Part shown: one piece after another, positions 9,470 through 41,177 of the stretch
Layout: the number at the start of each line of letters is the position of its first letter
Numbering within the stretch: position 1 is the first letter of the stretch
NCBI GenBank assembly: GCA_000708835.1
Contig: DF237545.1
Location: 1-43,540, forward strand
Direction of reading: 5' to 3'
DNA: 43,540 nucleotides
Origin: Klebsormidium nitens
Taxonomy: Eukaryota > Plantae > Klebsormidiophyceae
Program-made: the position numbers and the translations under genes
Notes under the pieces: generated by a model
Told to the model about the DNA's origin: nothing
Databases searched by the model: none
Seen by the model: only the letters and a program-made list of their open reading frames with translations

Positions 9470-9772
9470 GCCACGTGTCACCAACTGATTGGTGGGACAG
9501 CCGAGACGGCTGGGACTGCCATGCACCCCTTTTGGACCCCTAAAAGCACTCGGGGACAGCGCGGTCATCTGGGACAGCGTTTTGCACCCTTCGGCAGATT
9601 TCGAGAAGAAAGTAGGGTGGTATGGGTGGTGTCGCAGACGAGGTGGTATGAGCAAGCTTTTCATTTTTTGAAAAACTCCTGAAAGTGCTGTCCACGCTGA
9701 CCACCCTGTCCCCGACTCATTTATCTAGTCAAAAAAGGGTACCAGGCTGTCCCAGCCGTCCCGGCTGTCTCT
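9470..9772 (+). mobile_element. family-1 palindromic element, copy G
   Basis: Full two-arm copy, closely similar to copies A and H. Confidence 0.7.
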
Positions 9773-10141
9773 ATTCAAAGTCTCTACTGCTTCTCTTAAT
9801 CAAATAAAAGTGTTAAGCAACGAGTAAGCGATCCGACACAGCCCATGCCGCTGCGCAGGGTGCACGAGAGCAGCAATCGGAGGCCGCCCCCATTACCGAG
9901 GCCGCCACACCGCACTTAATGGCGTCGAACGAGGTATGCCACGAGTTCGGACGCTCTGCACACTCCCACACAATAGCCCCCTGTCTCTCACTGTTTAAGA
10001 AAGGTGGTCCTATTCTGGCGTAGGTTGGCCACAAGGATTCGAAACCCGCTGAGCAAACCATGGGAGACTTGGTTCACCAGTAAAAAAATCGAACGAATCG
10101 CATGCCAACTGCAGCAAAGGTACGAGCATCTTGCGAACGGT

Positions 10142-10508
10142 GCCACGTGTCAGCAAATAATTGGTCGAGACAGCTGGGACGGCTGGGACAGCCGGGGGAC
10201 CCTTTCTGACCTCTGAAATGACTCGGGGACAGCGCAGTCGGCTAGGACAGCGTTTCTCACCCTTCGGTAGATTTTGAGAGAAAAGTAGGGTGGTATGGGT
10301 GGTGTCGCAAACGAGGTGGTATGAGCAAGCTTTTCATTTTTCCAGAAAACTCTTGAAAGTGCTGTCCACGCTGACCACCCTGTCCCCGACTCATTTATCT
10401 AGTCAAAAAGGGGTACCAGGCTGTCCCAGCCGTCCCAGCTGTCCCCGATCGACTCTACTCATTTTTTTCAATCGTTTCGAGAATATATGAATAGAGTTTG
10501 ACACGTGT
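10142..10508 (+). mobile_element. family-1 palindromic element, copy H, with CACGTGTCA...TGACACGTG outer termini
   Basis: Both arms present. Begins GCCACGTGTCAGC (10142) and is followed by TTTGACACGTGTC (about 10497-10509), the reverse complement of the start. Confidence 0.7.
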
Positions 10509-13378: not shown

Positions 13379-14749
13379 CTAGCTCCGTTTCCGCTTTCGT
13401 CCTACCGAACCACCTCCAGCATCGCTCTTCCATTCGAACCCGTCATAGAACATCTGCTCCACAGTCAGTTCGCGATCGGGCACGTGCGCGAGATGATAAC
13501 GCAGACGCTCGATGTGTGCGCTCATGCGGGCCTCCCACATAGATTGGTCCCGGATCACTGGCACTCCGATCTTGTTGTGCTTGAAGCAGCTTGGGTATCT
13601 GGTCCCGTCCGCAGATGTGAACCCGTCTGGATTGAACCGGAGCTGCACCTGGGGGCGGTTGCCCGCATCCTGGAAGAGCTCCATCAGCCTCTTGTTCTCA
13701 CACGTAGTGCTCCGGTGCTGATCTTCGTCGTTCTCACAGTGCACCGTATGAGTATACAAGTCCACGAAGATGTCGGGCCTCCTCCCCGAACAGCCCCCTT
13801 GGATCCGCTTGTCGAAGGTGATACCCGCATCCTCTGAAAGGACGCCTGCCGCCTCGATGTAATCAGTAAAGTGCTGCTCCTTGACCTTGTAGTTGCGAGA
13901 CACCTTCTCGCCTGGGAACAAGTGCACGAAACACCGCAGACAGTGTCCTTTGTAGCGCTCATGAACGGCCCTCGTACCGCACCCGTTAACGCACTTCAAG
14001 CTGTGTATGTCCAGCATATCATCGGACTTGCATTTGCAACAATGTGTAGCCTTGCCGCCCTCCAGGCCGAACGTAGGCTGCGACCTTCCACAGACGCACT
14101 TGGGGCTTTTTACGTCCACCATATCTTCAGACTTGCATTTGCTGCAGTGACTAGCCCTGCCGCCTTTGAGTCCGAAGTTCGGCTGCGAATTCCCACAGGT
14201 GCACCTCGCTGCCCTGACATCCGCCATGTCGACAGACCTGCAATTGTTGCAGTGAGTGGCTCTGCCGCCTGCAAGTCCAAACGAAGGCCTCGTCCCACAG
14301 GCGCACCTCGGGTGCCTAACGTCCACCATATCGTGGGACTTGCATTTGCTGCAGTGGGTGGCTCTTCCCCCTTCAAGTCCAAAGCTAGGCCGCCCCCTCC
14401 CACAGGCGCACATCGGGTCTCTTACATTCAGCATATGGTGGGACTTGCATTTGCTGCAGTGGGTCGCCTTGCCCCCTTCGAGTCCGAAACTAGGCCGCCC
14501 TTTCCCACAGGCGCATTTTGAGTGTCTTGCGTCGAGCATATCGTCGGACTTGCATTCGCTGCAATGGGTGGCCCTTCTCCCTTCGACTCCGAACGTAGGT
14601 TGCCTCCTCCCACAGGCGCACTTCGGATTCTGTACGTCCACCATACTGTTGGACTTGCATTTGCTACAGTGAGTCGCCTTGCCGCCCTTGGATCCAAAAG
14701 TAGATCGCGCCCTACCACAGGCACACTTCTGGCCGACTACTTTCACCAT
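13379..14749 (-). CDS. Cys-rich repeat (EsV-1-7-like) protein with a C-terminal restriction-like (PD-(D/E)xK/Vsr-type) endonuclease, NCLDV type
   Basis: Intact, intronless 456-aa ORF with seven ~35-aa repeats CxCGxxxPxFGLEGGxATHCSKCKSxxMxDV. These are followed by KVKEQ...FDKRIQGGCSGRRPDIFVD...CENDEDQH...CENKRLMELFQD...LRFNPD, a pattern I recognise from giant-virus endonucleases. Confidence 0.8.
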   Translation of the reverse strand: MVKVVGQKCACGRARSTFGSKGGKATHCSKCKSNSMVDVQNPKCACGRRQPTFGVEGRRATHCSECKSDDMLDARHSKCACGKGRPSFGLEGGKATHCSKCKSHHMLNVRDPMCACGRGRPSFGLEGGRATHCSKCKSHDMVDVRHPRCACGTRPSFGLAGGRATHCNNCRSVDMADVRAARCTCGNSQPNFGLKGGRASHCSKCKSEDMVDVKSPKCVCGRSQPTFGLEGGKATHCCKCKSDDMLDIHSLKCVNGCGTRAVHERYKGHCLRCFVHLFPGEKVSRNYKVKEQHFTDYIEAAGVLSEDAGITFDKRIQGGCSGRRPDIFVDLYTHTVHCENDEDQHRSTTCENKRLMELFQDAGNRPQVQLRFNPDGFTSADGTRYPSCFKHNKIGVPVIRDQSMWEARMSAHIERLRYHLAHVPDRELTVEQMFYDGFEWKSDAGGGSVGRKRKRS

Positions 14750-14914
14750 TTTTGTAGATGGAAAGCTCTGAATGGGTTGTCGCCCTGCTTATCTTTCTAT
14801 GTTTTAAGTGCCCCCCCTTTGCTTTCTTAAGCCACACGACGATTTCAAAAGGGACGGCAAAGTCCCTGGCCTGGCTCCATTGGTCCTTGGAAAGAAATAT
14901 CTCCAGAGTTCGGA

Positions 14915-17900
14915 ATGGTCGATGCTAGGCGTACATCGGGTCTTTTCATTTCCTTACAACGCAATGTGCGCGCGCAGTGCGCGTCTGCATATGTAAACTT
15001 CAGAAAGATTAAGCACCCTGGACGACTCAGCATCTGGCTCTTGGGAGCGGGCAAGTCGAGAGAGCTATTCCATGGCCTCCTGCCCCGCCTCGCCCCCGAA
15101 GCCTCCGTCTGTCTGATCGCTCCGAACATCGCACTGGCGCGGAAGTACCACGAAGAGACCAAGAGGAAGGGCCTGGACTACGTCTGCTACCTCGACGAGC
15201 CTGGGGGGAAGATCAGCGCACGGCGGGTGGTGGTCTGTGTCAACTCCTTACCGAGAGTGCTGCCGCGCTTCGACATGGTGGTCATGGACGAGGTCAACTT
15301 CACGCTGACCAACATGGCGTCCACAGTTATGAAAGACAAGAAGCAGGTAAGAATGAGGTCGGAGGGTCGGACATGTCTCGGGCCCACCCATGACAAGGCA
15401 TTCGGTACCTTGGTCTTCGAGTGCCCGGCGATCATACTCTGTCGAAAAACGAGCTCTCTTTCGCTTGCAAGGTTTTCATGGCCCTGGAAGGGGTCGTGGC
15501 GGGCGCTAAGGCAGCGTTCCTGTGTGATGCCCACCTCAACTGCCCCCGTGTGGTGGAGTGGATCTAGGCCCTGCGGCACACAAGCCGCTTCTACACCATC
15601 CGGAACCGTGGCGTCTGGCCCTCGTCGCGAAAGGCCTTCATATTGCCGATGCCCGGGCCGTTGGTGGGAAGAGGGCAGCCAAAAGCCACATACTCTCTCG
15701 TGGTCGATGGTATCGTGGACCTCGTCGCAAGCGGGAAGACGGTCATGGTGAGAGAGCTGTCAGAAATTCGCACATTCCCACATGACCTGCCACGGGGCCA
15801 CCTCTTCCCCATCTTGAGCACACAGGGCCACAGGCCACAGAAAAAATAGCTTCCGAGATACAAGAAGGTTATAAATTTAGGAGAGTTTTTTTTCTTGACT
15901 CGTTTCGCTAGTCAGACCTTCGCACACCACCACCACGACGTGCCACGTGGCCACCTGAGCACCCAGGGCCACGGCCACAGAAAAAAAAGCTTCCGAGATA
16001 CAAGAAGGTTATAGATGATTTAGGAGAGTTATTTTTTCTTGACTCGTTTTGCTAGTCAGATCTTCGCACACAAAAACGACCTGCCACGTGGCCATCTCTT
16101 CTCCATCTTGAGCACCCAGGGCCACGGGCCACAGAAAAAATAGCTTCCGAGATACAAGAAGGTTATAAATTTAGGAGAGTTATTTTTTCTTGACTCGTTT
16201 TTGCTAGTCAGACCTTTGCACACCACCACCACGACGTGCCACGTGGCCACTTGAGCACCCAGGGCCACGGGCCACAGAAAAAAAAGCTTCCGAGATACAA
16301 GAATGTTATAGATTTAGGAGAGTTTTTTTTTTCTTGACTCGGTTTTGCTAGTGAGCTTTGCCAGCTGGTTGGTGTGTGCTGCACGTTAAGGATGGTTGTC
16401 AGATGACGAAGCTTTTCGAGCGACGCAGATACCCGCCACGAGTAAGACGTTCGTGGAGCTCCTGGAGGTGGAGTTCAAGGCCCGACTCCCGGGGAAGAAT
16501 CTCATCGCCTTCCACGGAGCTAAGAGAGAGGGGGCCGACAAGAGACTGCTGCAGCATGCGATTTCCAACCCGAACGATGCGCTTATCGCCGATTGCCTCG
16601 CATTCACGCCCACCATAGGCCCCGGTGTTTCTATCGAGAAGAAGGGGAGCTACGATTTGGTAATCGGGGTGGCGGTCAACTCCGACAACCACCCCGACGC
16701 CCAGGTGCTGATGCAGCAGATTCAGAGAGCTCGCGATGCCGGCGACATCCGGATTTACTACGGCGAGATCCAGAGCCGTCGGAAGGTCGCCTACCCTACC
16801 ACCAAGGAAGAGGTGTTCCAGATGCTAGAGAACAGCGATCTGCAGCTCGCAGACTTGATGCAAGGGGTCTCCGTGGACCATCTGGACATGCTGCGGGCTG
16901 CCCCCGGAGAGCGTGCTATCTATGACAGGAGCTCTGCAACGTGCAATCTGTACGCCAACAACCTGCTGGGCCGTCTACAGAGCCGGCAGTACTACATTCA
17001 TCTCTTGACAGAAGACCTTCGGCGACAGGGGGTGACTGTGGTCAACCAGTTGAACGTTCGAACATGGGGAGGGGATGCAGAAGTTGAGCTGGTGGCGAAA
17101 GAGGAGCTCGTCGACGAAACGATCGAGCAGTGGCGCGAGAGACACCTCGTCTCGTGGGAGCAATTTGAGCGGATAAGGGGAATGATGAGCTCTCCGTCCG
17201 GGGGCGTAAGCAGACAGGACGTCCTGAGGTATGAGATATTCGATGCAGCCGTTTTCTGCTACGGGATTCAGTATGAAAAGGTCGACCCCGAGTTCGTGGC
17301 TGAGTTCGTCCAGGGAAAGCACGCGAAGGACCTCATGACGAAATTCAAGAGCTACGAGAGGTAAGACTCCGTCCTCCCTCTGTGCACTTTCTGGTTTCTC
17401 CGGGGCTTTCTCGGCATGGTTTTACAACCTCTCGCGCTTGCATCGCATCTTTGAATTTCTGCGTGTGTGCAATGTACTATGAGGCAGAAGTCAGACTGAT
17501 GATGACGAGGGTTTGTCTTACAGGTTCGTGACTTCAACGTATGCCTCTACCATCGGGACCCTCAGCGCGGCTATCGAGGAGGGGGAGCAGAAGCGGAACA
17601 TCCAAGAGTACCTTGAAGTCAGGGATAGGTCGGCAAACGGGATCACGTATGCCTGGTGCGTGTTGGCAGCCTTAGTGGGTATACCTGCTGAGAAGGTTGA
17701 GAACACGGTGTTCGGGAGCTACAAGATTGTGGATGGACGGTTGGGGGAGGAGATGCTGTCCGCGGTCTTTGACATGGACGACTTTAACATGTCTGCTTCG
17801 CTCGAAACCCTCGAGAGGTTATTCAAGCCGCGGACGTCGTTCGCTGGGAAGGAACTGACGATCACACGGAGGAGGAACGTGATCAAGATGGTCTTGGAGG

Positions 17901-18073
17901 GAGGCTTAGGTCTGACGATACGGTTGGCACACTTTTCAAACGGGTGTCGTCGGGGATTTCACCGGATAGTCCCCATACAGAAGTGGAGGGCCCTGGATGA
18001 ACGGTACGGAGGGCTGAAGGACAAACTGGTCGAGAAAAAGAGCAAGCCTTGTCTCGTGGAAATCGATGAGTAG
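14915..18073 (+). pseudogene. UL9/origin-binding-protein-like SF2 helicase, 4 exons, one in-frame stop
   Basis: Exon 1 (to 15346): LGAGKS (Walker A), VVCVNSL, VVMDEV (Walker B). Intron 15347-15471. Exon 2 (15472-15747): FLCDAHL, with TAG at 15565. Intron 15748-16428. Exon 3 (16429-17360): FTPTIGPGVSI...QQIQRAR. Intron 17361-17523. Exon 4 runs to 18073. All junctions are GT-AG and keep the frame. Confidence 0.8.
15790..16355 (+). repeat. family-2 tandem repeat, 4 units of 140-154 bp with GCCACGTGGC palindromes, inside helicase intron 2
   Basis: The unit anchor GGCCACAGAAAAAA...GCTTCCGAGATACAAGAA occurs at 15833, 15973, 16127 and 16270. Units 1/3 and 2/4 share diagnostic variants. Confidence 0.95.
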
Positions 18074-21637: not shown

Positions 21638-21664
21638 CAATAACAATAACAATAACAATAACAA
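21638..21664 (+). repeat. (CAATAA)n microsatellite
   Basis: caataacaataacaataacaataacaa, just upstream of a TTCAG acceptor. Confidence 0.9.
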
Positions 21665-21869
21665 ATTCAGGAGGAGCGGTCCAGCGAGAGCCAGACCAGC
21701 GGCTCTCTGGCAGACCTCAGAGACGATGTCGGCACCCCCCGGGAAGGTGCGGCGTTCTACCCGGCCATCGACAACGAGCATGCAGCAGCACTGGAAGATC
21801 ACAATCTGCAACAGGTCGGCATCTATATTCCTTCTGCAGACCGTTGTTCCAACCTCCGCATGCGGGCCA

Positions 21870-22910
21870 ATCCTCCAAAATATGACCGTGACATTACGGA
21901 TTGCCTCCTCAAAAAAGTGGACAGGACTGACTCGTGCCGCCAGATCCAACCGGCGGACAAGTCCTCGGCCCCCAGGGCCAACCGTCCACATTCTGACTGT
22001 GACATTACGGATTGGCTCATCCAAAATGTGGACAGTACTGGCTCGTGCCCCCAGGGCCAACCGTCCACAATCTGACTGTGACATTACGGATTGCCACCTC
22101 CAAAATGTGGACAGGACTGGCTCGTGCCCCCCGGGCCAACCGTCCACATTCTGACACTGACATTACGGATTGCCTGNNNNNNNNNNNNNNNNNNNNNNNN
22201 NNNNNNNNNNNNNNNNNNNNNNNNNNNNNNNNNNNNNNNNNNNNNNNNNNNNNNNNNNNNNNNNNNNNNNNNNNNNNNNNNNNNNNNNNNNNNNNNNNNN
22301 NNNNNNNNNNNNNNNNNNNNNNNNNNNNNNNNNNNNNNNNNNNNNNNNNNNNNNNNNNNNNNNNNNNNNNNNNNNNNNNNNNNNNNNNNNNNNNNNNNNN
22401 NNNNNNNNNNNNNNNNNNNNNNNNNNNNNNNNNNNNNNNNNNNNNNNNNNNNNNNNNNNNNNNNNNNNNNNNNNNNNNNNNNNNNNNNNNNNNNNNNNNN
22501 NNNNNNNNNNNNNNNNNNNNNNNNNNNNNNNNNNNNNNNNNNNNNNNNNNNNNNNNNNNNNNNNNNNNNNNNNNNNNNNNNNNNNNNNNNNNNNNNNNNN
22601 NNNNNNNNNNNNNNNNNNNNNNNNNNNNNNNNNNNNNNNNNNNNNNNNNNNNNNNNNNNNNNNNNNNNNNNNNNNNNNNNNNNNNNNNNNNNNNNNNNNN
22701 NNNNNNNNNNNNNNNNNNNNNNNNNNNNNNNNNNNNNNNNNNNNNNNNNNNNNNNNNNNNNNNNNNNNNNNNNNNNNNNNNNNNNNNNNNNNNNNNNNNN
22801 NNNNNNNNNNNNNNNNNNNNNNNNNNNTTTCAAAATGTGGACAGGACTGGCTCGTGCCCCCAGATCGAACCGGCGGACAAGTCCTCGGCCCCCAGGGCCA
22901 ACCGTCCACG
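21870..22910 (+). repeat. family-3 array 1: 79-bp units with a palindromic core GTCCACATT...AATGTGGAC; spans a gap
   Basis: Core starts at 21984, 22063 and 22142 (period 79). The array resumes after the Ns at 22828. Confidence 0.95.
22177..22827. other. assembly gap within family-3 array 1
   Basis: Run of N. Confidence 1.
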
Positions 22911-23209
22911 TTTGGCCTCGGATGTACTATGTATCCAAGGGCGATGCCAGAATGCCAGCCGACTCCTGCGTGCGTCCCTCCTTGCAGCCCTCGACTCCCA
23001 TCTCTACCCCGTCGCATTTGCGCGAAGTCCAGCAGCCCGCTGTTAACCGAGAAGCGCACACCGAGAGCGATCCGGGCTTCGGAGATGCCGCCAGCAACGG
23101 AGCAGAATCCAACGCATCCACCGACGGCGAGCGTGCAGCTGCGTGGCGCCGTGACAGTTTGCCGAAGGTGAAGTTATTCATAGCCCCTCGAACCAGTCGT
23201 CTATTCTGT

Positions 23210-23300
23210 GCACCCAGAGCCAACCGTCCACATTTTGAAAGAGGCAATCCATAATACCATGATCAAAATGTGGACGAGTCTGTCTCGCGCACCCAGACCG
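23210..23300 (-). repeat. single family-3 unit with the core in reverse orientation
   Basis: GCACCCAGAGCCAACC-GTCCACATTTTGAAAGAGGCAATCCATAAT...CAAAATGTGGAC is the reverse complement of an array-2 unit. Confidence 0.85.
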
Positions 23301-23495
23301 ACCGGCAAAAACAGAAAATGCTTTCCCTCAGGGCCAACTCTTACTTCCAGGTGGCACGGCCAGTAGGTCAGGCCGACCTTCGAAACTTCACATTCTACAA
23401 GCCTATTTTCCAACATATTCACGTGCTTCCCTCGTCGACTACGCGTACCAATCATCAGAACGATTGTCTTTTTGAATTCACAGGCAAGGAACGCA

Positions 23496-26400
23496 ATGAC
23501 GGACACTGAGCGATCGGGGCTTCGAAAACAAACAGCAGCCCTTCGCCCCCGTCCTCTCGGCTGCACCGTGGTCCATTCCGAGCAGGAGGGCAAGGTCCAA
23601 ACCGTCCGACAGGACAACTTGCTGGGCACCTCTTTCTTCTTCAAGCTCAGCGTGCCCGCTCTGCACCACCGTGACACCAGGAACGGGCCGCAAGCGCTTC
23701 GCAGCAGCCATGGGCCATGGGATAGAGGTCAGACACCTCACGCCCCATCGGAACTACGGATCCTATCCGGAATGGCCGACCGCAGCCCCTCTTCTCCACG
23801 GCCAGCTTCACCTGGAAGAAGTGATGGCGGAGGGGAGACCATGCAAACCGTACTTGGATCTGGAAAGGGACGATGGGCTGCCGCCCGGGGAGGATCTCTC
23901 GACGGTCATCGCCCGCATCCGGGAGGGGGTCAAGGAGGTGTTCGACCAGGACTACGACGTGCAACTGGCCGACGATGACTTCAACTGGTTGCATTGCGAT
24001 TACGGTCCAAAGGGCAAGTTCTCCCTCCATCTCATCGTATCGACTCACGGCCCGCAATTCGTCTATCGGTCGAACCTAGTGCCGCCTGCTGATCCTCAGG
24101 GGGCCGGCCATCTCGCAAGGCGCCTGGCAAAGATCCTGGCCGCTCACTTGGCCGAGCTCATCGACCAGAGCGTGTTCACGCGGAACCGGGGGATGCGTCT
24201 GCCATTCTGCTCGAAACCAAAGACACCGGGCAACCCGCTCATCCCGATAGACCCGAACAAGCCTTTGGCGGACTCCGTCATTACGTGGATCGACGAGTAA
24301 GCCTGCACCTTCGGATTGGCATACAACCGACGATTGTATCAGAGCGATGGCGGCGTTCAGCTTGCGCGTCTCCGTCTCATCGTCGTTCCGGGACCGTGGA
24401 TTCACACTCGCCTTCCTCCCTGTAGGACACGTGCTTCATCCCCGTGCCAATCTTGGTCCCGGATGCGGTCCGGGAGAACCGTCCACGGCGCACGCCTGCA
24501 GATATGACGTACGTCAACCCACAAGTGGCGTCGAGCTTTCACGTTCAGCGCTGCTTGGAACTCCTTCAAGAGAGGTTGCACCCTACCGCTTACAAAAGGG
24601 GTTCCTCCGCAGCGCTGAGCTTCAGCTGGACGGACAGGCTCGGAGAGCCTTGCTACACGAATCACATCCACTCGGGGGACCGAGACATTATCTGCATCAT
24701 CGACGAGCCTGGGAACGCTGTGCTGGCGAAGTGCTGCAGCGAGCGCATCGATCCGGGCACGGGTGTCTGCTGCAAGGACCAAAAGGCCTTCTACCTGGGG
24801 CCCCTCCATGTCGACGTGGAGAGCTGGCGGGCCGGCGCAGTGGAGATCGACATGCGGTTCCTAGAGCGGGATGCTCTTTCGGCGGCCGACATGGACTTGT
24901 GCCTCATCAAGGCCGGTGTGAAGCCGCTGACTGACAAGATGTCCTTGAACGTCATCCTCAACAGGTGAGTGTCTGGGCGAGGCCCGTCGGGAACCCTTCT
25001 TTCCGAGAAACAACGCATTCCGTTTGCACTAAGATGCGATTCTTCGTGTCACTTTCAAATTGTGGACGGTGTGAAGCGGTTCCCAATACCTGGACTGTTG
25101 GTCCCGTGTTTGTACGGACAGAAATTATCCACAGTGTGACTTTGAGTTCACAGTCTCGTCCACATTCTGACTGTGACATTATGGTTTGCCTCTTTCAAAA
25201 TGTGGACGGTTGGCTCTGGGGTGCGGAAGATAGTCTCGTCCACATTCTGACTGTGACATTATGGTTTGCCCCTTTCAAAATGTGGACGGTTGGCTCTGGG
25301 TGCGGACAGCACTCTCGTCCACATTCTGACTGTGACATTATGGTTTGCCTCTTTCAAAATGTGGACGGTTGGCTCTGGGGTGCCGAAGACAGTAGCGTCC
25401 ACATTTGACTGTGACATTATGGTTTACCCCATTCAAAATGTGGACGGTTGCCTCTGGGTGCGGACAACAGACTCGTCCACATTCTGACTGTGACATTATG
25501 GTTTGCCTCTTTCAAAATGTGGACGGTTGGCTCTGGATGCGGAGGACCTCGCGCACCGCGTTCTGGTGCCGAGCCCAATCGTGTCCGTATCTTGAACGAC
25601 CCCTCGTCCACATTTCGAGGAGTCATTCCAGCACGCCGCGTGCGAATTGTGGCCGGCTGATCGTGTAGGCTTAGGCAGTCTTGTATACATCTTGAAAAGA
25701 TAATTGTGAATCCAGCAGGTCAGAGGTGAGTCGTGGCCGGTCATGAGTGCCTAAGACAGTCTCGTCCACATTCTGACTGTGACACCATGGATTGCCTCTT
25801 ACAAAACCTGGACGGTTGGCGCTGAGTGCGAAGGACATTCCTGTCCACATTTTGAAAGAGGCAATCCATAATATCATATACAAAATGTGGACCGTTGGTC
25901 CTGGGGCCGTAGGATTGTCTGTATACATTTCAAACTAGGCAAACCATGTTGCTCACGTCCAAGATGTTGTCGCTTGCAAGACTTTGTCAATTTTGGAGTC
26001 GATGCATTCAGGTTCTCGGTCTCATCGGACTTCATTTCCGTCCTGCAGGTGGCAGGCCGGGAAATTGAAGACCCTCCTTCTGAAGAGCCCTATGGGCACC
26101 GGCAAGTCGACTCTCCTCCGAGCGTTGATGTCGGAACAGCCTCGAACACGGACGGCCCTCATGATCACGTATCGGCAGACGCAGGCCAGTGACGCGCATG
26201 GCAAGAATGCCGACTTCTTCCAGTATGACCATCTTGTCAGGCCGTGTCGTCGATGACAGCATGTTTATCGAGGCATTGGCAGACAGAGACCGCTTCCCCC
26301 GTGTGATCTGCTAGGTCGACAGCGTTCCCCGACTTCTGGTTGGGGGGAGGCTCGTCACGTCATTCGATCTCATCAAAGTTCTGGACGAGAGCGAATCGAT

Positions 26401-27577
26401 CTTTTCGCACCTGTCCGCCGCCACCCTCAAAACTAGGCGCAAGACGATGAGCTTCATGGTTCAGCTCTTCCAAGAGGCTAAGAAGATCGTCGCCATTGAC
26501 GGTCACTTGGGTCAGCGCCCTTACGACTTATTGTCCATGCACCGGATCGCATGCGGACCCCGCAGCTCTATCAGAGTGTAGCTAATGATATCTGGACATA
26601 TAAACGAGCACCTCCCAGCCCGACCGCTCTGCTTCGAGTTGGTCACCGGTAACGAGGGTCTGGACGTCTAGACTGAAGCGATCTGCGGGGTTCTCTAAGT
26701 GGCGAGAATTACTTCGTCGTCAGCATGTCGTCGGAGGCAGCCTATCGGCTGGCAGACACAATTTCGGGGACCCGGTTGGTGCCGGAGTCTGAGGTTCCGA
26801 TGGTGACAAGACATTCGGCGGGAGATGTGAAGAAGGCGCTGGAGAACGTTCATGTTGCGTGGCTGAGACGCGTCGGCATCATCAGCCCGAGTGTCGAGGA
26901 GGGGGTAGACTTCAACCGGGAGTGGTTCGACTGTACCTTCATCTATATGTGCCCCTTCAGTACGACTCCACGCGGCCTTGATCAGATGAAGGGCCACGTC
27001 CGATACGTGCGAGAGCCGACTGTTTTGTGCTTCGTGCACTCGCGGATGGTTCTATCGACCGTTTCGACCGGATGCTTTTCTGACGTGGACGAAGCATCCG
27101 GTGAGGATCAAGCCAACCTCTTCGAACGCTATTATGGTGCTCGTCGCGCCTATGCAGTGAATCTATCCGTCGAACCGTCCTAAGCTCGAGCCGTATCGCT
27201 CACTGGCTTCCTCGAAAATTTCCAGGATCGTCCGCATCTCATTAGTCGAAACCGGTCTGCGTGCAGATGTCGAAGAGGAGCTGTACTCTACGGGAATGGC
27301 ACCCAAGCGGGCTGCCTTCAGCTGGCTGGGGGTCGAAGAGACCTACCAATTCTTCCGCCGGGTGGATGGCAAGCTGGACAATATTGTGGCAGGAAAGACT
27401 CGTCACAGAGGGGATGCAGGGGAGCCGGAATACATCCCTGTCGAGTTCGCGGCGGGGCGGATCCGCCAGAGAGAGGAAGGAGGGGTGTCAGAAGTCGTCC
27501 CTGCCGAGGACGCGGTGATCAGGATGTTCGCTCACAATGAGGCCGAGCAAGGCAGATATTTTGCTCTTGGCACATAA
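23496..27577 (+). pseudogene. AEP (PrimPol/UL52-like) primase + Zn-finger + UL9/origin-binding-like SF2 helicase fusion, intron-containing and decayed
   Basis: AEP motifs HLEEVMAEGRPCKPYLDLE (I), KFSLHLIV (II) and IDQSVFTRNRGMRLPFCSK (III). Donor at 24297, acceptor at 24425. Cys/His region PCYTNHIH...LAKCCSE...CCK. Intron 24965-26048 joins in frame to LLKSPMGTGKS (Walker A), ITYRQTQA, VIC*VDSVPRL, VLDESESIFSHL (Walker B) and AIDGHLG, then IYMCPF. Stops at 26312, 26669 and 26696, plus several frameshifts. Confidence 0.8.
25060..25905 (+). repeat. family-3 array 2: 78-80-bp units inside the primase-helicase intron
   Basis: Units start at 25155, 25235, 25314, about 25394 and 25472. Further cores lie at about 25764 (forward) and about 25843 (inverted). 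Confidence 0.95.
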
Positions 27578-32300: not shown

Positions 32301-35300
32301 GCCCGTCCTTCACTTATGCCGTGGCTTGGTACAAGTATATGTTCTAATTATTTGACAAACCGCTCAGCCGATGACTTGAAGACCTCTTACGTGTATGGCA
32401 ACCCACTTTCTCCTCCTTTTTCAACAGAGGAGACATCATAGCATTTTCTTGAAGTTCAGACTTGATTGATTCACCTGTGCATAATAGGGGGTTCAATGCC
32501 GTCGTGCAGATACTCCAGGCCAATTGTGACGTAGAGTGCTGTTCGCAGGCGCTTGGACCAGTCAAATCTTTCAGGGCCTGCAGTAGTCAGCAGCACGCAC
32601 CCTTCACAACGTGCGAGCGACTCATGGAACGGTGGGCGACATAACACAAAGAAAGTGGGGTATGGGATTGAAGTATCAAGCATCAGATTTTACTACTTGT
32701 TGTCCATTTCAATGTTAGGAAACTCATCCAATAAGCACCCAACGACCATCAAGCCTTACCATGGAGTGCTTGAAACAGATTCCCCCCCTTGCAAAACTCA
32801 AGGACAATAATCCGTTCTGTTCCCGCTATGGCGTACCCAAGCATGGACACGAGGTACTTGTGGCGCAAACTGCTCATGATAGCCATCTCAGTGTAAAAGC
32901 TTTCGTTGTTGGGCCCCTGCAACAGAATACTCTTGCGTTCCAATTTCTAAGCGCCGGTGATGATTTTGATTGATGAATTTTTCACTTTCAGGAAAGAGGT
33001 CATCTGAAAATGTCATATATCTCCTGCCGTCTAAAAGGGAGGTTTTGCCCTTATTGGGAGGTTTTGCCCTTACGGACGACGCCCTATTCTCCGATTATTA
33101 TATTATCGTATATGGAGGGCTATCGCTACTCCAATAATCATGGATTTCAAAGAGCTAGCCCTACACCGTTTCCAGGCTTTGAGATGCATGAACAGCTCGA
33201 GTGTTCCTCACGTCCACCAGTTTCTAGACAAACATGGCATCAAAGACATTAATGAAGATTTAGTAGAATCTGACTGCAAACAACCGCTTTTAATTTGCCG
33301 CTTATTACACTGGCGGCCGACTGTCTTGATTGTTTACCTTTTTTCCTTGTCATTATGGCTTTCGTAAATAACACACAAAATGGTTCACACGCTGTGTTGA
33401 ATTCTTATTTGAAGCTTTCTTATTCAGAGCGGTGTTTGTGGGCTCTGTATACCGCTCACGCACTGTAGCAATGAGGCCTCGATTGACCAGGAAAGTTTCA
33501 TGAGTTTTCTAGGATAAAGAGGGGCGATCTATTCAAATATCTTGACACACAAGAAAAGGCTCCATTTTCAAAGTTGCGTGCTCACATTTACAGGGTCGGA
33601 CTGCAAAACCTTGACCGCCATAGATGTGCCATCCACCTGTGTTCCTTTGTAAACTGCACCAGGGCGGGGGGTGGGGCATTCGTTTCTGCGTTCTGGAAGG
33701 TCTTTAAAAATGGCTAGCATTGCAGTTTGCGATTTGGTAGAACCTACATGCGGCTGTAGAGAACAAGCTTTAGGCAGCAGCTGAGACAAGAGCACGCGAT
33801 GAGGCGCAGCCCGAAATACTCGATTTGCAGATATTTATGTCAAGAATTGGAAACTCAGGAAAGCTATCAAGCTCCAATGTTAATGAGAGCCATTTTTCTA
33901 GCCAGAACCACAAAGCTTTCGATCCAGACAGATGACTCTTCTTACATCGATCATATGTTGCCCAAGAGGCTCGGGAAATATGATTAGACAGCTGCAATTC
34001 CACTTCGATTCATTGCATCCTTACCTTTTGAAAAGCCTCCTTGGCCAACAAGGTTCGACATACTGAACCCATTTGTTGCGGACAGCACCTCCTCATAAGG
34101 ATAAATTCTGCTTTTGCTATCTCTGGCAGAGCTTGCAAATGATGTGCTGCTTCCACCTGATGTTGGTAGGAGGATATCAGCCTGAGGATTGGTGGAATCA
34201 AGAAAGTGCTTGAGACCTGAAAAGGATATGTCTCGACGGCAAAGGGTGTGAAAAATGGATGCCAAGGTGACAGACTGGAAGACAAATAGAAAAAGAGCTG
34301 AAACCATGTTGTCAAAAGACTCTTTCCTGGATGGCTGTGTCCACACCATCCTTGGAAGCCCAGTTGACAAATGATAAAGTAAACACAGCAGCCACTCCTG
34401 AATTGCCCCAGTTATTGCTGATCAGTTCCCTATTTATTGCTGATCCTGAGGGAAGTCATGCAATCAATAGATTTTGCTTTGAGACATTGATGGTTGAGGA
34501 ACATGATCTCTGCAAGATCAGAGGTGGACGCAATACCAAGTCATGGCAGGGCCAAGCTCATTACTTCTCTTGACCATTTAAGCATTTGCAACAGCTGGAG
34601 TTTGATTGGACTTTGATTATGCTACAGCTTACCAGCCTGCTTAGTTGGAGCAGCAGGGTGGTGCGGCACTGCAGCCTCTTTGGGTGCTTCATGGGTTGGC
34701 AGGTCATTGGAACGCTCCTTTTTCCGCCTTTGGTTTTTGAAAAGGCAACAGAGGACAATGCCGATAATTGCAGTGGTGACAACCGCCGCACCAGCCACAC
34801 AACCCACAATTATGCCAACTTTGGATCCACTGGAGCCTGCATATACGATTACTGGAGGAGGAGGAGCAGACGCAGGCGGGCGAATAGGGGGTGCAGGCGT
34901 TGCGGCAGGGGGCGTAGGCGTGATGGCCGGGGTCGTAGGTGTAGCACAACTGCTCACAGTGTCGACGAGGTAGTCATTGCAGCACGACCCTATAGGGCTG
35001 GAACTTGGACAAGAGCAAGTGCCGACCACATTGGCATATGGTCCAACAGTACATGTGCTAGTATCTGGTTGGCAGCAGGCGCCGTACGGGCTGGGGCTGC
35101 TGCAGGTTGAGTAGTACGTGGAGGAGGAGCCCGGGCCCGGTGCTTGGCATAGAGGGCCACTGGAACCGGCGGGACAGAAGTAGTACTGTGAGAAGCTGGT
35201 GCAACAGGAGAAAACGGGCAGGCTGTCTGGGCAGGGCACCCCTCCGAGGTTGCAGCTCTTCTTGAGCACAATGCCCAAGCAAGTCGATCCTGATGTAGAG

Positions 35301-37105
35301 CAGCATCCGGTGTAGAGATTCTGGGGGCAATACCCCGAAGGAGCACTCGTGCAGGTGTACGTAGTGACCAGTTCCCGGCCTTGGATGTGGTGTGCCGACA
35401 TAAACCCTGCAAGGAGCAAACCGAAAAGACATCAAAACACTGCTATCAAATGGAAAAGCTTGTAGCAAGGACTTTGGAAGCCCAGGTTGCTGCATTCAGC
35501 CTCCAGAGTTCCTTACAAACTCATGCTGTAGGCATCTCAAGCGTTTGCAATCGCAGGCGTTTTTTTGGTGCATATCGTACTTTCTGTTCCGACCTTGTCC
35601 CCCGTTCCCAATAACAGATCCTTCAAAGTGCTGATGGGTGATGGAAAAGTGTACCAATCGCAGAGCAACTAGCTGATGGCCTAGGTACAACAAATTATGG
35701 TGCCCGCATTTGTTCGCAGACCCCTGGAGCCCTACTTCTGCAGAGGACGGAGAGAGGTACCGAGCCACAAGCGTGCCATTTGACTTCAAAGCCTTGTTAT
35801 TTAATATGTGGTGATTACATATTGACAACATGAGGACCTTCTCAGTTCAAGTGTGAACCAATCATAGACTCACATCATCCAGCAGGTGCATTGTATTGTA
35901 ATGCCAGCTGAGTGCATTGCATCTGGGAAAGAAGCAAAGCATGTCACTAACTAAGCTTCTGATGAGTAGGAGCAATAGCTAGCAGGTTCTACTGGGACAA
36001 GATGCTTAAAGGTGTGGTTCTCTGATTATAGTTTTCCACCCACCGTGCTCACAGTGACTGTCGCAATCTGGAGAACTCAGAGTACCTTAGCACACAAAAA
36101 AGCCCGACTTACCTGTTAGGTTGAGGACAGTCTGGCCTGCGACGCCCTCCTGGAACACTCTGTCCCCAACCGGAGAATGCCCCAGATCAGATTGCGCCTG
36201 GCAGAATCCACTCTGGCACACTGCTGCGCGGCAATAAATGTTTCTTTCACAAAAGGCACAAGTGGAGGCTCCTCCATCAGACCCTTGTGTGTATGATGCA
36301 GCCGGCCATGGCAGGCTAGTGAACAGTTAGGATCTTCTCAGCCTAAGCTAAATCGCTCAAGAAATAGCAGACCAGATAGACTCCTTCGTAAAGATCCTTC
36401 ATGGTCAATCAGGTAGGCTCTTGAGATGCTCATTCTCTGTCTTAAAGAGAGAGCTGCTTCCATTTGATTGGGCTATGACCCTGATGACCCAATTCAAAAA
36501 AAAAAGACAGTCGACAAGACCTGACACAAAATCAACTCAGATGCTGCAAGCTCGGATAGGAATGCTCCAGGCATCCCCTCAGGTTGTAAGCCTTCAATCT
36601 AAGAAAGTACTTGAAAATTTGTGTCCGAGTGACTGTTTTCTTTGCTCCTCTTGGACATATTGCATCAAAGCTGGCAGTCCTTAATTATCTAGAAGCAGCA
36701 GAGAAACACGGTCAAAATAACACCTAAATGAGAGCTCTCAATTCTCCGCAGTCAGTCTGAGATGCACATTTTGCATATGCAACTTCTTGAACATGTCAGA
36801 CAGCAAACTCTACATCATAGACTGATGAGCGGAAAGTCAGAGAAGCCTTGCCCTGCACAGTAACAGGAAGTGAAGAGCACCCCACCCAGGATACATGCTA
36901 AGCAGACCGTATGCTACTTCTTCTCGACAGGATTTCTTGCCCGCGAAAGTATCTGTGGAATACTTCTGGACTGCTGCCAATACTTTGTTGCATTGCAACT
37001 ATGAGTTGGAGTCTCACCCAAATATAACAGGAGCAGCAACGTCCACTTTGAAGCTCCCGTCTGGCTCACCAGCACACCCTTCACAATCTTCCGTATCATC
37101 GTCAT
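29337..37105 (-). CDS. receptor-like Ser/Thr (RD) kinase with a Cys-rich ectodomain, Pro-rich stalk and TM helix; about 12-13 exons
   Basis: Signal exon 37105-37018, exon 36223-36113, and ectodomain/TM exon 35406-34633. Kinase exons give VGQGGFSK|VYKG...MAVK, FYTEMAIMSSLRHKYLVSMLGY, LEYLHDGIEPPIMHR|DIKSANVLF (31967-31913), LSDFGVAK (31542-31470), GYIALEY, DIYSLGVLLSELVTGR and AVECMNQHEPTARP. The last exon stops at 29337. Junctions are GT-AG. The exon(s) between 34632 and 34181 are not fully resolved. Confidence 0.85.
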
Positions 37106-38778: not shown

Positions 38779-41177
38779 ATGATGAAAACTCCGAAAGGCG
38801 CGCCGATGAGGCAAACAGGAGCTCCGAAGTGGACGCTGCTGCTCCTGCTCCTATGCTATGGTGAGGGTCAAGAATTTGCTAATTGCAATGCAGAAAGCAC
38901 TGTCACCACGTACGAACCATCTGTATTTTGTAGAAGATACTTTGAGCGTTGTCAAAATAAATGTTGAGGGGTTTTCTCAGCAATGTCCTGGGTTGATGCT
39001 CTTCATCTTCTGTCACCGCGCAGGGTTATATAATTCTCACTCATCAGTCTCTGACGCAGAATTTGCAGTCGAACATGGTCAAAATGTCGCAAGGGCAATT
39101 TTTGTGTATCAAGCCCAAGTGATGCGAATAGAGGGTTTCTTTTAGGTGTCATTTGGACTGAGTCCCTATCAAAGATCAGGGTTGCCTTCTCATTGTAATG
39201 TTAGTTTCTGATCATAGCAAGTTCTACAGTCCTCAGGCACAGACCGTCAAATGTGTATCTAGCTCAAAGTTACGATTTGAGTGAACTACTTTGGATTGTA
39301 CACACGCTTGCAGTCATTGGTCATTGGATGTGTAGTGCTGATTGTCATTTATGTGGTGGTCTGTAGAATTGGAAGATTTGCTTAATCTGAACATTTTCCT
39401 CCCCACCTATTCACGAACCTGCCATGGCCGGCTGATCATACACACCTAAGGGTTTACTGGAGGAGCCGCCACTTGTAGATTAGTTTGAAAGAATCTTGTG
39501 GTGCCGTGCAGCAGTGTGCCGGAGTGGATTCTGCCAGGCGCAAACTGATCTGGGACCTTCTCAAGTCGGGGACAGAGTGTTCCGGGAGGGCGTAGCAAGC
39601 CAAAGTATTCTCAACCTGACAGGTAAGTGTTGTCGCTTAGGTGCCCCCCGAGTCCTTCAGAACGTAGAATTACTTGGGGTAGAATTTCGTAAATTGGTCC
39701 ATTTTAAGCTTTTTAGCCTACTGGCCTAATAGAACCTGCTAAGCACTATTCTTCTCACAGAAAACTTACACATTGGCACTCTTTGCTTGCCTCAAGATGC
39801 GCTGCACTTGCTGGATGACTGCACATGTCTATTATTGGTTCAGGCTTGAATTGAGGAGGTCATGTTCTCAATATGTAAACCCTACATGTGAAATTATAAG
39901 GCTTTAACTTCAACTGGGGCTGCTTGCAGTTCTGTCTTCCTTTCCATTGGTTGCCGAAGTAGGGCTCCAAAACCTGCAAACAAATGCTAATTAACGACAT
40001 TATAATTCGATGTACGTTAGGCCCCCAGTCAGTCGCTCTGTGATTGAGGCAATATCCTTCATACACAGATCATCGTCCGGGAGGGCCTGGCATCAAAAAT
40101 CTAGGACAAGGTTAGAATAGAAACACAATTGGCACCAAAAAAAACACCTGCAACTGCAAAAGCTTAAGATGCCTAAAACAGGGGTTTGTAAAGAACCTGG
40201 AGGCCGAATGCCAATTTGCAACCTTGGGTTCCGAAGTCCTTAATAAGCTGTTCCAATTAATCGCAGTCCTTTCATGTCTTTCCCCTTTCCTCATTGCAGA
40301 GTTTATGTCGGCACACCACATCCAAGGCCGGGAACTGGTCACTACCTACACCTGCACGAGTGCTCCTTCGGGGTATTGCCCCCAGAATCTCTACACCGGA
40401 TGCTGCTCTACATCAGGATCCACTTGCTTAGGCATTGTGCTCAAGAAGAGCTGCAACCTCGGAGGGGTGCCCTGCCCAGACAGGCTGCCCGTTTTCTCCT
40501 GTTGCACCAGCTTCTCACAGTACTACTTCTGTCCCGCCGGTTCCAGTGGCCCTCTATGCCAAGCACCGGGCCCGGGCTCCTCCTCCACGTACTACTCAAC
40601 CTGCAGCAGCCCCAGCCCGTACGGCGCCTGCTGCCAACCAGATACTAGCACATGTACTGTTGGACCATATGCCAATGTGGTCGGCACTTGCTCTTGTCCC
40701 AGTTCTAGCCCCATAGGGTCGTGCTGCAACGACTACCTCGTCAACACTGCGAGCAGCTGTGCTACACCGCCAGCATATACGACCCCGGCCATCACGCCTA
40801 CGCCCCCTGCCCCAACGCCTAGGCCTCCTGCCCCAACCCTGGCGCCCCCTGCCCCCACGCCTGCGCCTCCTGCCCCAACCCTGGCGCCCCCTGCCCCAAC
40901 GCCTGCGCCTCCTGCCCCAACCCTGGCGCCCCCTGCCCCAACGCCTGCGCCTCCTGCCCCAACCCTGGCGCCCCCGGCCCCAACGCCTGCGGCCCCTTCC
41001 CCTACGCCGGTGCCCCCCGTCCTAACATCTGCACAAACTTCTAGCAGTAGCGCGCTCTCCACCCCTGCCGTCCCGTCGCCCCCAGTTGCTATTTCAGCTT
41101 CTGCCTTACGTATTATGTCTTCAAAGGTCGTTACTGGAGCATTTTTGGCTGGTGTTCTCGGCTGGATGCTCTTCTGA
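38779..41177 (+). CDS. secreted Cys-rich, Pro-rich protein with a probable GPI-anchor signal; kinase-less paralog of the adjacent receptor kinase
   Basis: Exons 38779-38860 (signal ...KWTLLLLLLCYG|), 39512-39622 and 40300-41177, all phase 1 and matching the kinase gene's exons. Same 20-Cys domain, then PAPT repeats, a Ser-rich linker and a terminal hydrophobic tail (VVTGAFLAGVLGWMLF-stop) with no cytoplasmic domain. Confidence 0.85.
40824..40991 (+). repeat. 42-bp coding tandem repeat (PPAPTLAPPAPTPA)x4, AGP/extensin-like stalk
   Basis: Four near-identical units, visible in both DNA and translation. Confidence 0.9.

What the first reader, a model, noticed from the sequence alone, without database searches (positions are those of the whole stretch)
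21870..25905. Family-3 repeat shows cores and linkers in opposite relative orientations, like an invertible cassette
Seen: each unit has a ~50-bp core bounded by inverted arms (GTCCACATT(C/T)TGA ... TCAAAATGTGGAC) plus a ~30-bp linker. In array 1 the linker reads AGGACTGGCTCGTGCCCCCAGGGCCAACC. In array 2 the core keeps the same orientation but the linker reads GGTTGGCTCTGGGGTGCGGAAGATAGTCTC, whose reverse complement (GAGACTATCTTCCGCACCCCAGAGCCAACC) aligns with the array-1 linker. At about 23225 and about 25843 the core itself is inverted, and at 25764/25843 two neighbouring cores face opposite ways. Inference: recombination across the arms has flipped segments repeatedly, through cruciform-driven or enzyme-driven inversion.
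Basis: partly seen in the sequence, partly recalled or inferred. Interest (0 to 1): 0.7.

Follow-up and report, generated by a model that had tools for sequence, protein, structure and literature searches.

The report
Hairpin minisatellite with flipped spacers
A 79-base tandem repeat lying in and just upstream of a decaying virus-type replication gene of a Klebsormidium-like alga occurs in two forms that differ by a flipped segment between short inverted arms; the flips were likely old DNA-copying errors that became fixed, not an active genetic switch, so this is a tidy but ordinary case.

Summary
The unit is 79 bp: a 50-bp core (arms GTCCACATT(C/T)TGA / TCAAAATGTGGAC around a 24-nt interior) plus a 29-30-nt linker. 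In array 1 (21864-22176, N gap, 22828-22930) and array 2 (25150-25553, plus 25764) the cores point the same way and the linkers are reverse complements. The cores at 23226 and 25843 are reversed.

Contigs from public runs of one sample reproduce the sequence exactly. Contigs from four other studies hold both unit forms at about 83-96% identity with no strand-changing joint.

Segments between the arms did flip, probably at least twice. Nothing suggests an active invertible cassette:
- No recombinase family was found in any of the 103 ORFs of at least 100 aa.
- Orientation is fixed in relatives.
- The flipped piece is only 24-32 bp.

The size and anatomy fit hairpin-associated spacer inversion by replication template switching, followed by tandem amplification.

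Array 2 fills 952 of the 1084 nt of a GT-AG intron in a pseudogenised PrimPol-type primase / UL9-like helicase gene (a giant-virus-type origin-binding protein). Array 1 lies upstream of that gene. The window also encodes a protein 98-100% identical to Klebsormidium nitens KFL_005960040.

Verdict: a new member of a known kind, of low to moderate interest.

The parts
21864..22176 (.). Array 1, left part. Type-A units: linker ending ..CCAACC, then a core in + orientation. Cores at 21873, 21984, 22063 and 22142 (the last cut by the gap). A 61-nt double linker lies at 21923-21983.
22177..22827 (.). Run of 651 N inside array 1. One contig in each of X1, X2 and X3 joins 22176 directly to 22828, which restores one intact 50-nt core. 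The true content is likely zero or a whole number of repeat units.
   Evidence: (table 5); X5 loose end at 22828
22828..22930 (.). Array 1, right part: end of a + core, a 61-nt double linker (94% identical to 21912-21992), then a truncated, degenerate core from 22904.
   Evidence: (D7)
23199..23305 (.). Solitary unit S1: linker, reversed core (23226-23275, perfect 13-nt arms), linker. It is the whole-unit reverse complement of a type-B unit (84-89% to array 2).
   Evidence: (I3, I5, I6, I8)
23496..24297 (+). Exon with a PrimPol-type primase (AEP) domain. The reading frame shifts near 23691, where the window lacks 11 nt that an X6 contig has and that proteins P0001/P0002 imply.
   Evidence: (table 4)
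24444..24964 (+). Exon with a Cys/His-rich region. I read it as a UL52/PrimPol-type zinc finger from recalled motifs only. It is colinear with K. nitens homologues.
24965..26048 (+). Predicted 1084-nt GT-AG intron (GTGAGT ... CAG). Removing it joins ..LNR to WQAG.., where K. nitens P0024 reads ..LNK WQAG.. without a break. 952 nt of it (25020-25971) are family-3 repeat.
   Evidence: P0004 and P0011 end at the homologous residue
25150..25553 (.). Array 2: five type-B units, each a core in + orientation followed by a linker starting GGTTGG... Cores at 25158, 25238, 25317, 25397 and 25475.
25606..25654 (.). Degenerate core with recognisable arms and a diverged interior. It carries the only compensatory arm change in the family (C-G where the others have T-A).
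25735..25842 (.). Type-B unit B6: core 25764-25813 in + orientation, with array-2-type linkers on both sides.
25843..25971 (.). Reversed core C1 (25843-25892), an array-2-type forward linker (25893-25920), and a second, degenerate reversed core (25921-25971).
   Evidence: (I14-I19); contigs X3 25507-26032 and X5 25850-25998
26049..27063 (+). UL9-like (Herpes_ori_bp) helicase exons of the same gene, with a frame change at about 26236-26240 and in-frame stops at 26312-26314 and 26579-26581. This makes the copy a pseudogene.
15759..16361 (.). Related feature outside the finding: the family-2 tandem array (about 147/294-nt period) inside an intron of a second origin-binding-protein-like gene. It shares a 23-33-nt module with the family-3 linker-arm junction.

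Best explanation
The region holds a 79-bp minisatellite with a hairpin-forming core. Its two unit forms differ by inversion of the segment between 9-13-nt inverted arms. These flips were likely made at least twice by replication template switching at the arms, then fixed and amplified into separate arrays, and not by an active invertase.

Shown directly:
- The unit anatomy and the discordant orientation of cores and linkers.
- Breakpoints that lie within the first 9 nt of the arms.
- Both isomers in contigs from independent studies.
- The position of the arrays: array 2 fills a GT-AG intron of a pseudogenised PrimPol-type primase / UL9-like helicase gene, and array 1 with the solitary unit S1 lies upstream of it.

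Inferred mechanism:
- During replication the single-stranded arms pair, either within one strand or with the sister strand.
- The nascent strand switches template within one arm, copies the spacer from the opposite strand, and switches back in the other arm. This inverts the 24-32-nt segment.
- Because arms alternate along a tandem array, flipping a core is equivalent to flipping a linker.
- Unequal exchange then spread each isomer into its own array. Odd units (C1 and the degenerate core after it) survive at an array edge.

The repeats are most likely neutral passengers of the intron and the upstream region.
For: Anatomy fits spacer inversion.
- 8 perfect 9-nt arm pairs occur against 0.00 expected.
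- Interiors and linkers are homologous only in opposite relative orientations.
- The arm variant at position 10 moves with the interior.

Structure potential.
- Cores fold as DNA hairpins at -5.8 to -11.3 kcal/mol. S1 has z=-4.9 and C1 has z=-3.9.
- A linker between the arms of two neighbouring cores also folds, at -9.4 and -10.6 kcal/mol.

More than one event.
- C1 is 92% identical to S1, 88% to array-2 cores and 80-82% to array-1 cores.
- C1's flanking linkers are of array-2 type.

Arm homogenisation, the other stated outcome of template switching. S1 has perfect 13-nt arms and C1 has 12-nt arms, whereas + cores carry a C/A mismatch at position 10.

The flips are fixed, not switching.
- Relatives at 83-96% identity keep the same orientations.
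- The only joints in those contigs are copy-number joints ('goes back 101/105').

No recombinase family was found in any of the 103 ORFs of at least 100 aa.

Literature.
- Template switching between short inverted repeats gives arm homogenisation and spacer inversion. [quoted passage not shown]
- Chloroplast small inversions of 5-50 bp bounded by 11-24-bp inverted repeats are widespread (passage in PMC12928735 citing Kim & Lee 2005).
Against: - No direct evidence of mechanism exists. Template switching, cruciform processing and arm-mediated ectopic exchange leave the same product.
- The count of at least two events rests on about 3 shared sites between S1 and C1 and on linker scores of 12 against 6. 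One flip followed by later conversion is not excluded.
- The yeast spacer inversions in PMC8604942 involved 2-5-bp spacers in coding DNA, much shorter than the 24-32 nt here.
- All runs were available only as contigs, which drop rare variants, so low-frequency switching cannot be excluded.
- The arms are better conserved between isomers (96% and 89%) than the interior (82%) or the linker (76%). This could also reflect a function.
- Only 43.5 kb were searched for a recombinase, and no whole genome is held.
Confidence: 0.68

Rival explanations
1. Arm-mediated ectopic exchange between oppositely oriented copies. The reversed core C1 would have been copied from the S1-like unit 2.6 kb upstream (both read the same way on the chromosome) by a microhomology-guided template switch or conversion tract ending in the arms. 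Type-A units would have arisen likewise, with no in-place inversion.
For: S1 and C1 are each other's closest cores (92%). They share three states absent from all other cores, and both are in - orientation. Units in opposite orientation coexist within 4 kb. Because the arms are palindromic partners, they read alike in both unit orientations.
Against: Only 9-13 nt of homology would guide each switch. The product cannot be told apart from an in-place flip. The argument rests on very few informative sites.
Confidence: 0.15
2. Functional cis-elements. The inverted arms with a less GC-rich spacer would be recognition sites (iterons, a relic or working origin) for the giant-virus-type origin-binding primase-helicase encoded at the locus. 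Flips would be a by-product of protein-driven hairpin extrusion.
For: The arrays lie inside and just upstream of an origin-binding-protein-type gene. A second such gene in the window also carries an intronic array. That array shares a 23-33-nt module with the linker-arm junction (CCCAGRGCCA: 10 hits against 0.24 expected, all in these two arrays). Arms are the best-conserved segment. Interior GC is 0.42-0.46 against 0.60-0.69 for linkers. HSV-1 UL9 acts on two closely spaced sites in its origin (abstract of PMC13458718 in the listing).
Against: The gene copy is a pseudogene. The arrays sit in a conserved spliceosomal intron of a long-resident nuclear gene family. The stem shows no covariation: 1 compensatory cell, matched or beaten by 294 of 500 shuffles. 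No binding data exist. Identity of the repeats to relatives is no higher than that of neighbouring coding DNA.
Confidence: 0.07
3. An active invertible cassette driven by a site-specific recombinase encoded elsewhere in the genome.
For: Perfect inverted arms bound the flipped segments, and two neighbouring cores face opposite ways.
Against: No recombinase family was found in any of the 103 ORFs of at least 100 aa. No strand-changing joints appear in 8 runs, and orientations are conserved in relatives. Arrays are homogeneous per isomer. The 24-32-bp segment is far below the size of known invertase-switched segments (recalled, not tested). No gene or promoter is carried by the segment, and the host gene is a pseudogene.
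Confidence: 0.03
4. An assembly artefact: short-read assembly mis-joined near-identical palindromic units.
For: The scaffold is a draft with 4 N gaps, one of them inside array 1. Contigs break at the arm of S1, and that junction is spanned by no contig.
Against: The arms (9-13 nt) are shorter than any assembly word. Single contigs span type-A junctions, type-B junctions and the B6-C1 pair with 0 differences. Contigs from four other studies carry the same junctions.
Confidence: 0.03

Closest known systems
Spacer inversion between short inverted repeats by replication template switching (quasi-palindrome template-switch mutations; yeast study PMC8604942; short template switches in human, PMC5453318, abstract seen only in a search listing)
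   Same: Short inverted arms of at least 9 nt bound an exactly reverse-complemented spacer while the flanks stay collinear. Arm homogenisation accompanies it. Events recur and are reversible.
   Different: Here the spacer is 24-32 nt, against 2-5 nt in the yeast coding cases. The substrate is a tandem array in which arms alternate, so either the core or the linker can be taken as the flipped part. Each isomer was later amplified into its own array.
Hairpin-associated small inversions ('flip-flop' loops) of chloroplast non-coding DNA (Kim & Lee 2005, as cited in a passage of PMC12928735)
   Same: The size class matches: 5-50-bp inversions bounded by 11-24-bp inverted repeats that form stem-loops. 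They are recurrent and lie in non-coding DNA.
   Different: This locus is nuclear (spliceosomal introns, LRR genes nearby), the arms are 9-13 nt, and the hairpin is the repeat unit of a minisatellite.
Site-specific invertible DNA switches (Hin/Gin/Fim-type; recalled from general knowledge)
   Same: Inverted repeats bound a segment that is found in both orientations.
   Different: No recombinase was found, no coexisting orientations were detected, the segment is about ten times smaller or more, and there is no regulated gene. Tested features were not met, so this is not filed as a member.
Origin-binding-protein recognition sites in viral origins (HSV-1 UL9 acting on two closely spaced sites; abstracts in the listing) and mimivirus R8-type primase-helicase origin-binding proteins (PMC2373305 passages)
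   Same: The neighbouring gene has the R8-type layout (AEP primase + Cys/His region + UL9-like helicase). The repeats are paired inverted sites around a less GC-rich spacer.
   Different: No evidence exists of binding or replication. The sites lie in an intron of a pseudogene, and no sequence relation to any known origin was tested.

Membership tests
Inverted-repeat spacer inversion (template-switch / hairpin-associated small inversion) | The inverted segment is bounded by short inverted repeats | tested here: met
   9-nt perfect and 12-13-nt near-perfect arms at 8 cores, against 0.00 expected; folds
Inverted-repeat spacer inversion (template-switch / hairpin-associated small inversion) | The segment between the arms is reverse-complemented while the flanking sequence stays collinear | tested here: met
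   Interior and linker orientation scores with shuffles. C1 is flipped between forward array-2-type linkers.
Inverted-repeat spacer inversion (template-switch / hairpin-associated small inversion) | Breakpoints lie inside the arms | tested here: met
   The C/T variant at arm position 10 travels with the interior in type A against type B, so the switch points lie in the outer 9 nt
Inverted-repeat spacer inversion (template-switch / hairpin-associated small inversion) | Dependence on replication (nascent-strand switching) | not testable with these tools
   Needs mutation-accumulation or replication-mutant experiments
Site-specific invertible switch | A recombinase encoded at or near the locus | tested here: not met
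   0 of 103 ORFs of at least 100 aa hit a recombinase, integrase or transposase family. Only 43.5 kb could be searched.
Site-specific invertible switch | Both orientations coexist at the same unit within a population | tested here: inconclusive
   No strand-changing joints in contigs of 8 runs, but contigs drop minority forms and no raw reads were available
Minisatellite (tandem repeat) | Head-to-tail units of tens of bp, with copy number varying among relatives | tested here: met
   TRF period 79, 2.7 and 5.0 copies. X6 contigs 'go back 101/105' within array 1, and an X7 contig has a further linker where the window's array 2 begins.
Replication-origin iterons for an origin-binding protein | Specific binding by the protein and origin activity | not testable with these tools
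   Only circumstantial: location beside two origin-binding-protein-type genes and a shared module
Structured RNA family | A match to a curated RNA family, or covariation that keeps the stem paired | tested here: not met
   0 Rfam matches at gathering score and at E<=1. 1 compensatory cell, with 294 of 500 shuffles as high.
MITE / foldback transposon | Dispersed copies with terminal inverted repeats and target-site duplications | tested here: not met
   Within the window the family is confined to 21864-25971 and is tandem. 0 exact pattern matches in viral or metagenome collections. The rest of the genome could not be searched.
PrimPol-type AEP primase fused to a UL9-like helicase (host gene of the repeats) | AEP catalytic motifs and a Herpes_ori_bp helicase domain in one colinear protein | tested here: met
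   A profile of homologues plus the window's exons hits human PrimPol 5l2x/7jk1 at E=1.1e-7 over two conserved blocks. The window exon scores 19.6 bits on PF02399 (cut-off 20), and the colinear K. nitens P0024 scores 45.4 bits. Colinearity is shown. The window copy itself is broken.

The most novel reading that the evidence does not exclude
The inverted arms and the shared CCCAGRGCCA-containing module are recognition sites for the giant-virus-type origin-binding primase-helicases whose genes carry them. They would be relic or still usable replication-origin iterons embedded in host introns, and protein-driven hairpin extrusion at these sites would cause the repeated spacer flips.
Probability: 0.06. 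Interest if true: 0.75.

Novelty: new member of a known kind. Interest (0 to 1): 0.27.

Why it matters
If the main reading is right, this is a clean nuclear example of hairpin-mediated spacer inversion. The arms, breakpoints and both isomers are all preserved, and each isomer was later amplified into its own array. That makes it useful as a natural marker of template switching and minisatellite turnover in a streptophyte alga, but it does not change any concept.

It also shows that an intron of a giant-virus-derived gene family can consist almost entirely of such a repeat (952 of 1084 nt).

The finding would matter far more only if the arms proved to be binding sites of the encoded origin-binding proteins. 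In that case origin function of endogenised giant-virus replication genes would become testable.

Tried and rejected
- Mirror-symmetry idea. The layout reads A-forward x about 13, B-reverse x1, gene, B-forward x6, A-reverse x2, which suggested one flip plus one large inverted duplication. I rejected this as the whole story. C1's core and linkers are of array-2/S1 type and not array-1 type, and blastn found no mirrored homology outside the repeat units.
- Whole-genome search: no genome is held for this window.
- Related DNA elsewhere.
  - The protein-guided metagenome scan gave 202 pattern matches, none confirmed.
  - The arm-pattern scans of metagenome and viral contigs gave 0 matches.
  - The viral-contig scan with alignment A1 could not run. 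The scan with P0004 gave 2 pattern matches, none confirmed.
  - As a result, no paralogous locus could be read as DNA.
- RNA evidence: no RNA holder is listed for the stretch. Splicing of the predicted intron is untested.
- Structured RNA or snoRNA idea: 0 Rfam matches and no covariation.
- Coding potential of the arrays: long stop-free frames cross them, but 79 is not a multiple of 3 and none has a Pfam hit.
- Transposon insertion making the intron: CAGGTG occurs at both intron borders, but it coincides with ordinary splice-site consensus. There are no terminal inverted repeats, and the intron position is shared by distant paralogues.
- Earlier notes of this scan: nothing on this genome, sequence or topic.
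- Literature: searches for Klebsormidium with origin-binding protein or primase, with giant-virus or transposable-element terms, and with tandem-repeat or satellite terms listed no paper on these repeats. The search on palindromic minisatellites with spacer inversion listed no description of isomer-specific arrays.


Full report
**What is there**

Between 21864 and 25971 the window carries one repeat family, found nowhere else in its 43.5 kb. The unit is 79 bp. It has two parts:
- a 50-bp core, made of arms GTCCACATT(C/T)TGA and TCAAAATGTGGAC around a 24-nt interior;
- a 29-30-nt GC-rich linker.

Perfect 9-nt arm pairs at this spacing occur 8 times, against 0.00 expected.

The layout from left to right is as follows.
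- Array 1 runs from 21864 to 22176, continues through a 651-N gap, and ends at 22828-22930.
- A solitary unit, S1, lies at 23199-23305.
- Two coding exons follow.
- Array 2 lies at 25150-25553.
- A degenerate core lies at 25606.
- A further unit lies at 25735-25842.
- A reversed core, C1, lies at 25843-25892.
- A degenerate reversed core lies at 25921-25971.

**Check of the observation**

I scored interiors and linkers separately in both directions, each against 2000 shuffles.
- The interiors of array 1 and array 2 match only in the forward direction (p=0).
- Their linkers match only as reverse complements (scores 10-15, p<=0.0025; forward scores 2-4).
- S1 is a whole-unit reverse complement of an array-2 unit (84-89% identity).
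- C1 has a reversed interior between two forward array-2-type linkers.

There are therefore two isomers of the unit. In type A the ..CCAACC end of the linker abuts the arm next to CTGTGAC. In type B the same linker end abuts the arm next to AAGAGG. Each array is pure for one isomer.

The arms differ at position 10 (C on one, T on the other). This variant stays with the interior in both isomers, so the breakpoints lie in the outer 9 nt of the arms.

The only corrections are that the quoted array-1 linker is a 1-mismatch consensus and that some degenerate units were missed.

**Is it an assembly artefact?**

Contigs from four runs of one sample lie on the region with 0 differences. That sample may be the window's own source, so these runs are not independent.
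- Single contigs span type-A junctions (21960-22066) and type-B junctions (25354-25501).
- In run X3 one contig spans 25507-26032, which holds the two opposite cores.

Contigs from four other studies lie on both arrays at about 83-96% identity. Three of these runs are labelled as other organisms and one is a freshwater metagenome. They keep the same junctions, including C1 with its downstream linker (X5, 25850-25998). Their only joints are copy-number joints in array 1.

No contig in any run spans the left edge of S1 (23220-23240). Its junction sequence is identical over 32 nt to the reverse complement of array-2 junctions, which breaks word-graph contigs there. S1's right junction is spanned.

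One contig in each of X1, X2 and X3 joins 22176 to 22828 and restores one intact 50-nt core. The N gap therefore most likely stands for zero or a whole number of units.

**Genomic setting**

The window encodes a 697-aa protein over four exons (14915-18070). It is 98-100% identical to Klebsormidium nitens KFL_005960040, so the window comes from that species or a near-identical strain.

The ORFs flanked by the repeats are colinear with K. nitens 'replication origin-binding protein' paralogues at 46-62% identity. The matching segments are 23692-24297, 24444-24964, 26047-26235, 26240-26668 and 26698-27063.

The domain assignments are these.
- N-terminal domain: a profile of homologues hits human PrimPol at E=1.1e-7 over two conserved blocks.
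- Its Atlas look-alikes are Nucleocytoviricota AEP/UL52-type clusters.
- C-terminal part: a UL9-like Herpes_ori_bp helicase.

This is the mimivirus R8-type layout of primase + zinc domain + UL9 helicase described in PMC2373305 (passages).

Removing 24965-26048 (GTGAGT ... CAG) joins ..LNR to WQAG... P0024 reads ..LNK WQAG.. at that point without a break. Two unnamed homologues end at exactly that residue. The stretch is therefore a conserved intron, 1084 nt long, and 952 nt of it are family-3 repeat.

The copy is decaying.
- It lacks 11 nt at 23691, which shifts the frame. The 11 nt are present in an X6 contig and are implied by P0001/P0002.
- The frame changes again at about 26236-26240.
- There are in-frame stops at 26312-26314 and 26579-26581.

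**Mechanism**

The anatomy matches spacer inversion between short inverted repeats.
- Template switching between inverted-repeat arms yields both arm homogenisation and spacer inversion. [quoted passage not shown]
- Chloroplast non-coding DNA shows widespread 5-50-bp inversions bounded by 11-24-bp inverted repeats (passage of PMC12928735 citing Kim & Lee 2005).

Here the arms are 9-13 nt and the flipped piece is 24-32 nt. Cores fold as DNA hairpins at -5.8 to -11.3 kcal/mol. A linker between the arms of adjacent cores also folds, at -9.4 and -10.6 kcal/mol. In a tandem array either part can therefore be the 'spacer'.

The two reversed cores have homogenised arms, 13 and 12 perfect pairs. The + cores carry a mismatch at position 10.

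At least two events are likely. C1 is 92% identical to S1, 88% to array-2 cores and 80-82% to array-1 cores. Its linkers are of array-2 type. C1 is therefore not an inverted copy of array 1.

A variant mechanism, given as the first rival, is that C1's core was copied from the S1-like unit by an ectopic switch guided by the arms.

After the flips, unequal exchange must have amplified each isomer into its own array. That step is inferred.

**Why not an active switch**

- None of the 103 ORFs of at least 100 aa hits a recombinase, integrase or transposase family. The hits are LRR families, EsV_1_7_cys, Herpes_ori_bp and weak P-loop matches.
- No strand-changing joints occur in 8 runs, and orientations are conserved in diverged relatives.
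- The arrays are homogeneous for one isomer each.
- The segment is too short for duplex looping (my own reasoning).
- It carries no gene, and the host gene is broken.

Contigs cannot reveal minority forms, so a low level of polymorphism remains untested.

**A possible function**

- The arms are the best-conserved segment between isomers: 96% and 89%, against 82% for the interior and 76% for the linker.
- The stem shows no covariation. There is 1 compensatory cell, and 294 of 500 shuffles do as well.
- No Rfam family matches.

One point remains open. The second origin-binding-protein-type gene in the window also has an intron filled by a tandem array (15759-16361). That array shares a 23-33-nt module with the family-3 linker-arm junction, with local-alignment p of 0.000-0.010. 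The motif CCCAGRGCCA occurs 10 times against 0.24 expected, and all 10 hits lie in these two arrays. This could reflect a common satellite origin or a cis-element. I give the cis-element (origin iteron) reading about 6%.

**Verdict**

The flips are real, are mediated by the arms, and probably recurred. They are old and fixed, and there is no evidence for an enzyme-driven invertible cassette. This is a new instance of a known mutational phenomenon, found in an unusual host: an intronic minisatellite of an endogenised giant-virus-type replication gene.

Noticed in passing
window 14915-18070 (+), array at 15759-16361: A second origin-binding-protein-like helicase gene, 98-100% identical to K. nitens KFL_005960040 over 4 exons. 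Its intron at about 15751-16416 is filled by a tandem array of about 147/294-nt period. That array shares a 23-33-nt module with the family-3 linker-arm junction.
   Followed up: partly
window 13382-14788 (-), tandem repeat 14009-14686: A 469-aa open frame with 7 EsV-1-7 cysteine-rich motifs (PF19114, E=6.3e-35), encoded by a 105-bp tandem repeat. It lies directly beside the helicase gene, so there are two virus-associated gene types side by side.
   Followed up: no
window 23691; 26236-26240; 26312-26314; 26579-26581: Lesions of the primase-helicase copy: 11 nt missing relative to a relative's contig and to P0001/P0002, a second frame change, and two in-frame stops. Same-sample contigs confirm the first lesion with 0 differences.
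   Followed up: partly
window 4787-10445: A dispersed repeat family of about 85-440 nt, 67-88% identical, in both orientations, rich in GGGACAGC-type motifs. It has at least 8 copies and lies around three N gaps.
   Followed up: no
window 34895-36326 and 39407-40820: A 1.4-kb inverted duplication (78.7% identity). No Pfam hit was found in ORFs of at least 100 aa lying in its arms.
   Followed up: no
window 707-2299 (-) and 42863-43540 (-): Leucine-rich-repeat ORFs at both ends of the window, overlapped by or adjacent to 72-nt-period tandem repeats (1381-1536, 43150-43540).
   Followed up: no
window 21923-21983 and 22843-22903: A 61-nt 'double linker' (two linker copies with no core between them) at both ends of array 1, giving 111-nt units. 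Contigs of run X6 'go back' 101/105 nt here, which suggests that this longer unit is itself tandemly repeated in a relative.
   Followed up: partly
window 21638-21664; 3922-4041; 40794-41017: Other simple repeats: (CAATAA)x4.5 just upstream of array 1, a 27-nt repeat x4.4 abutting an N gap, and a 21/42-nt C-rich repeat.
   Followed up: no
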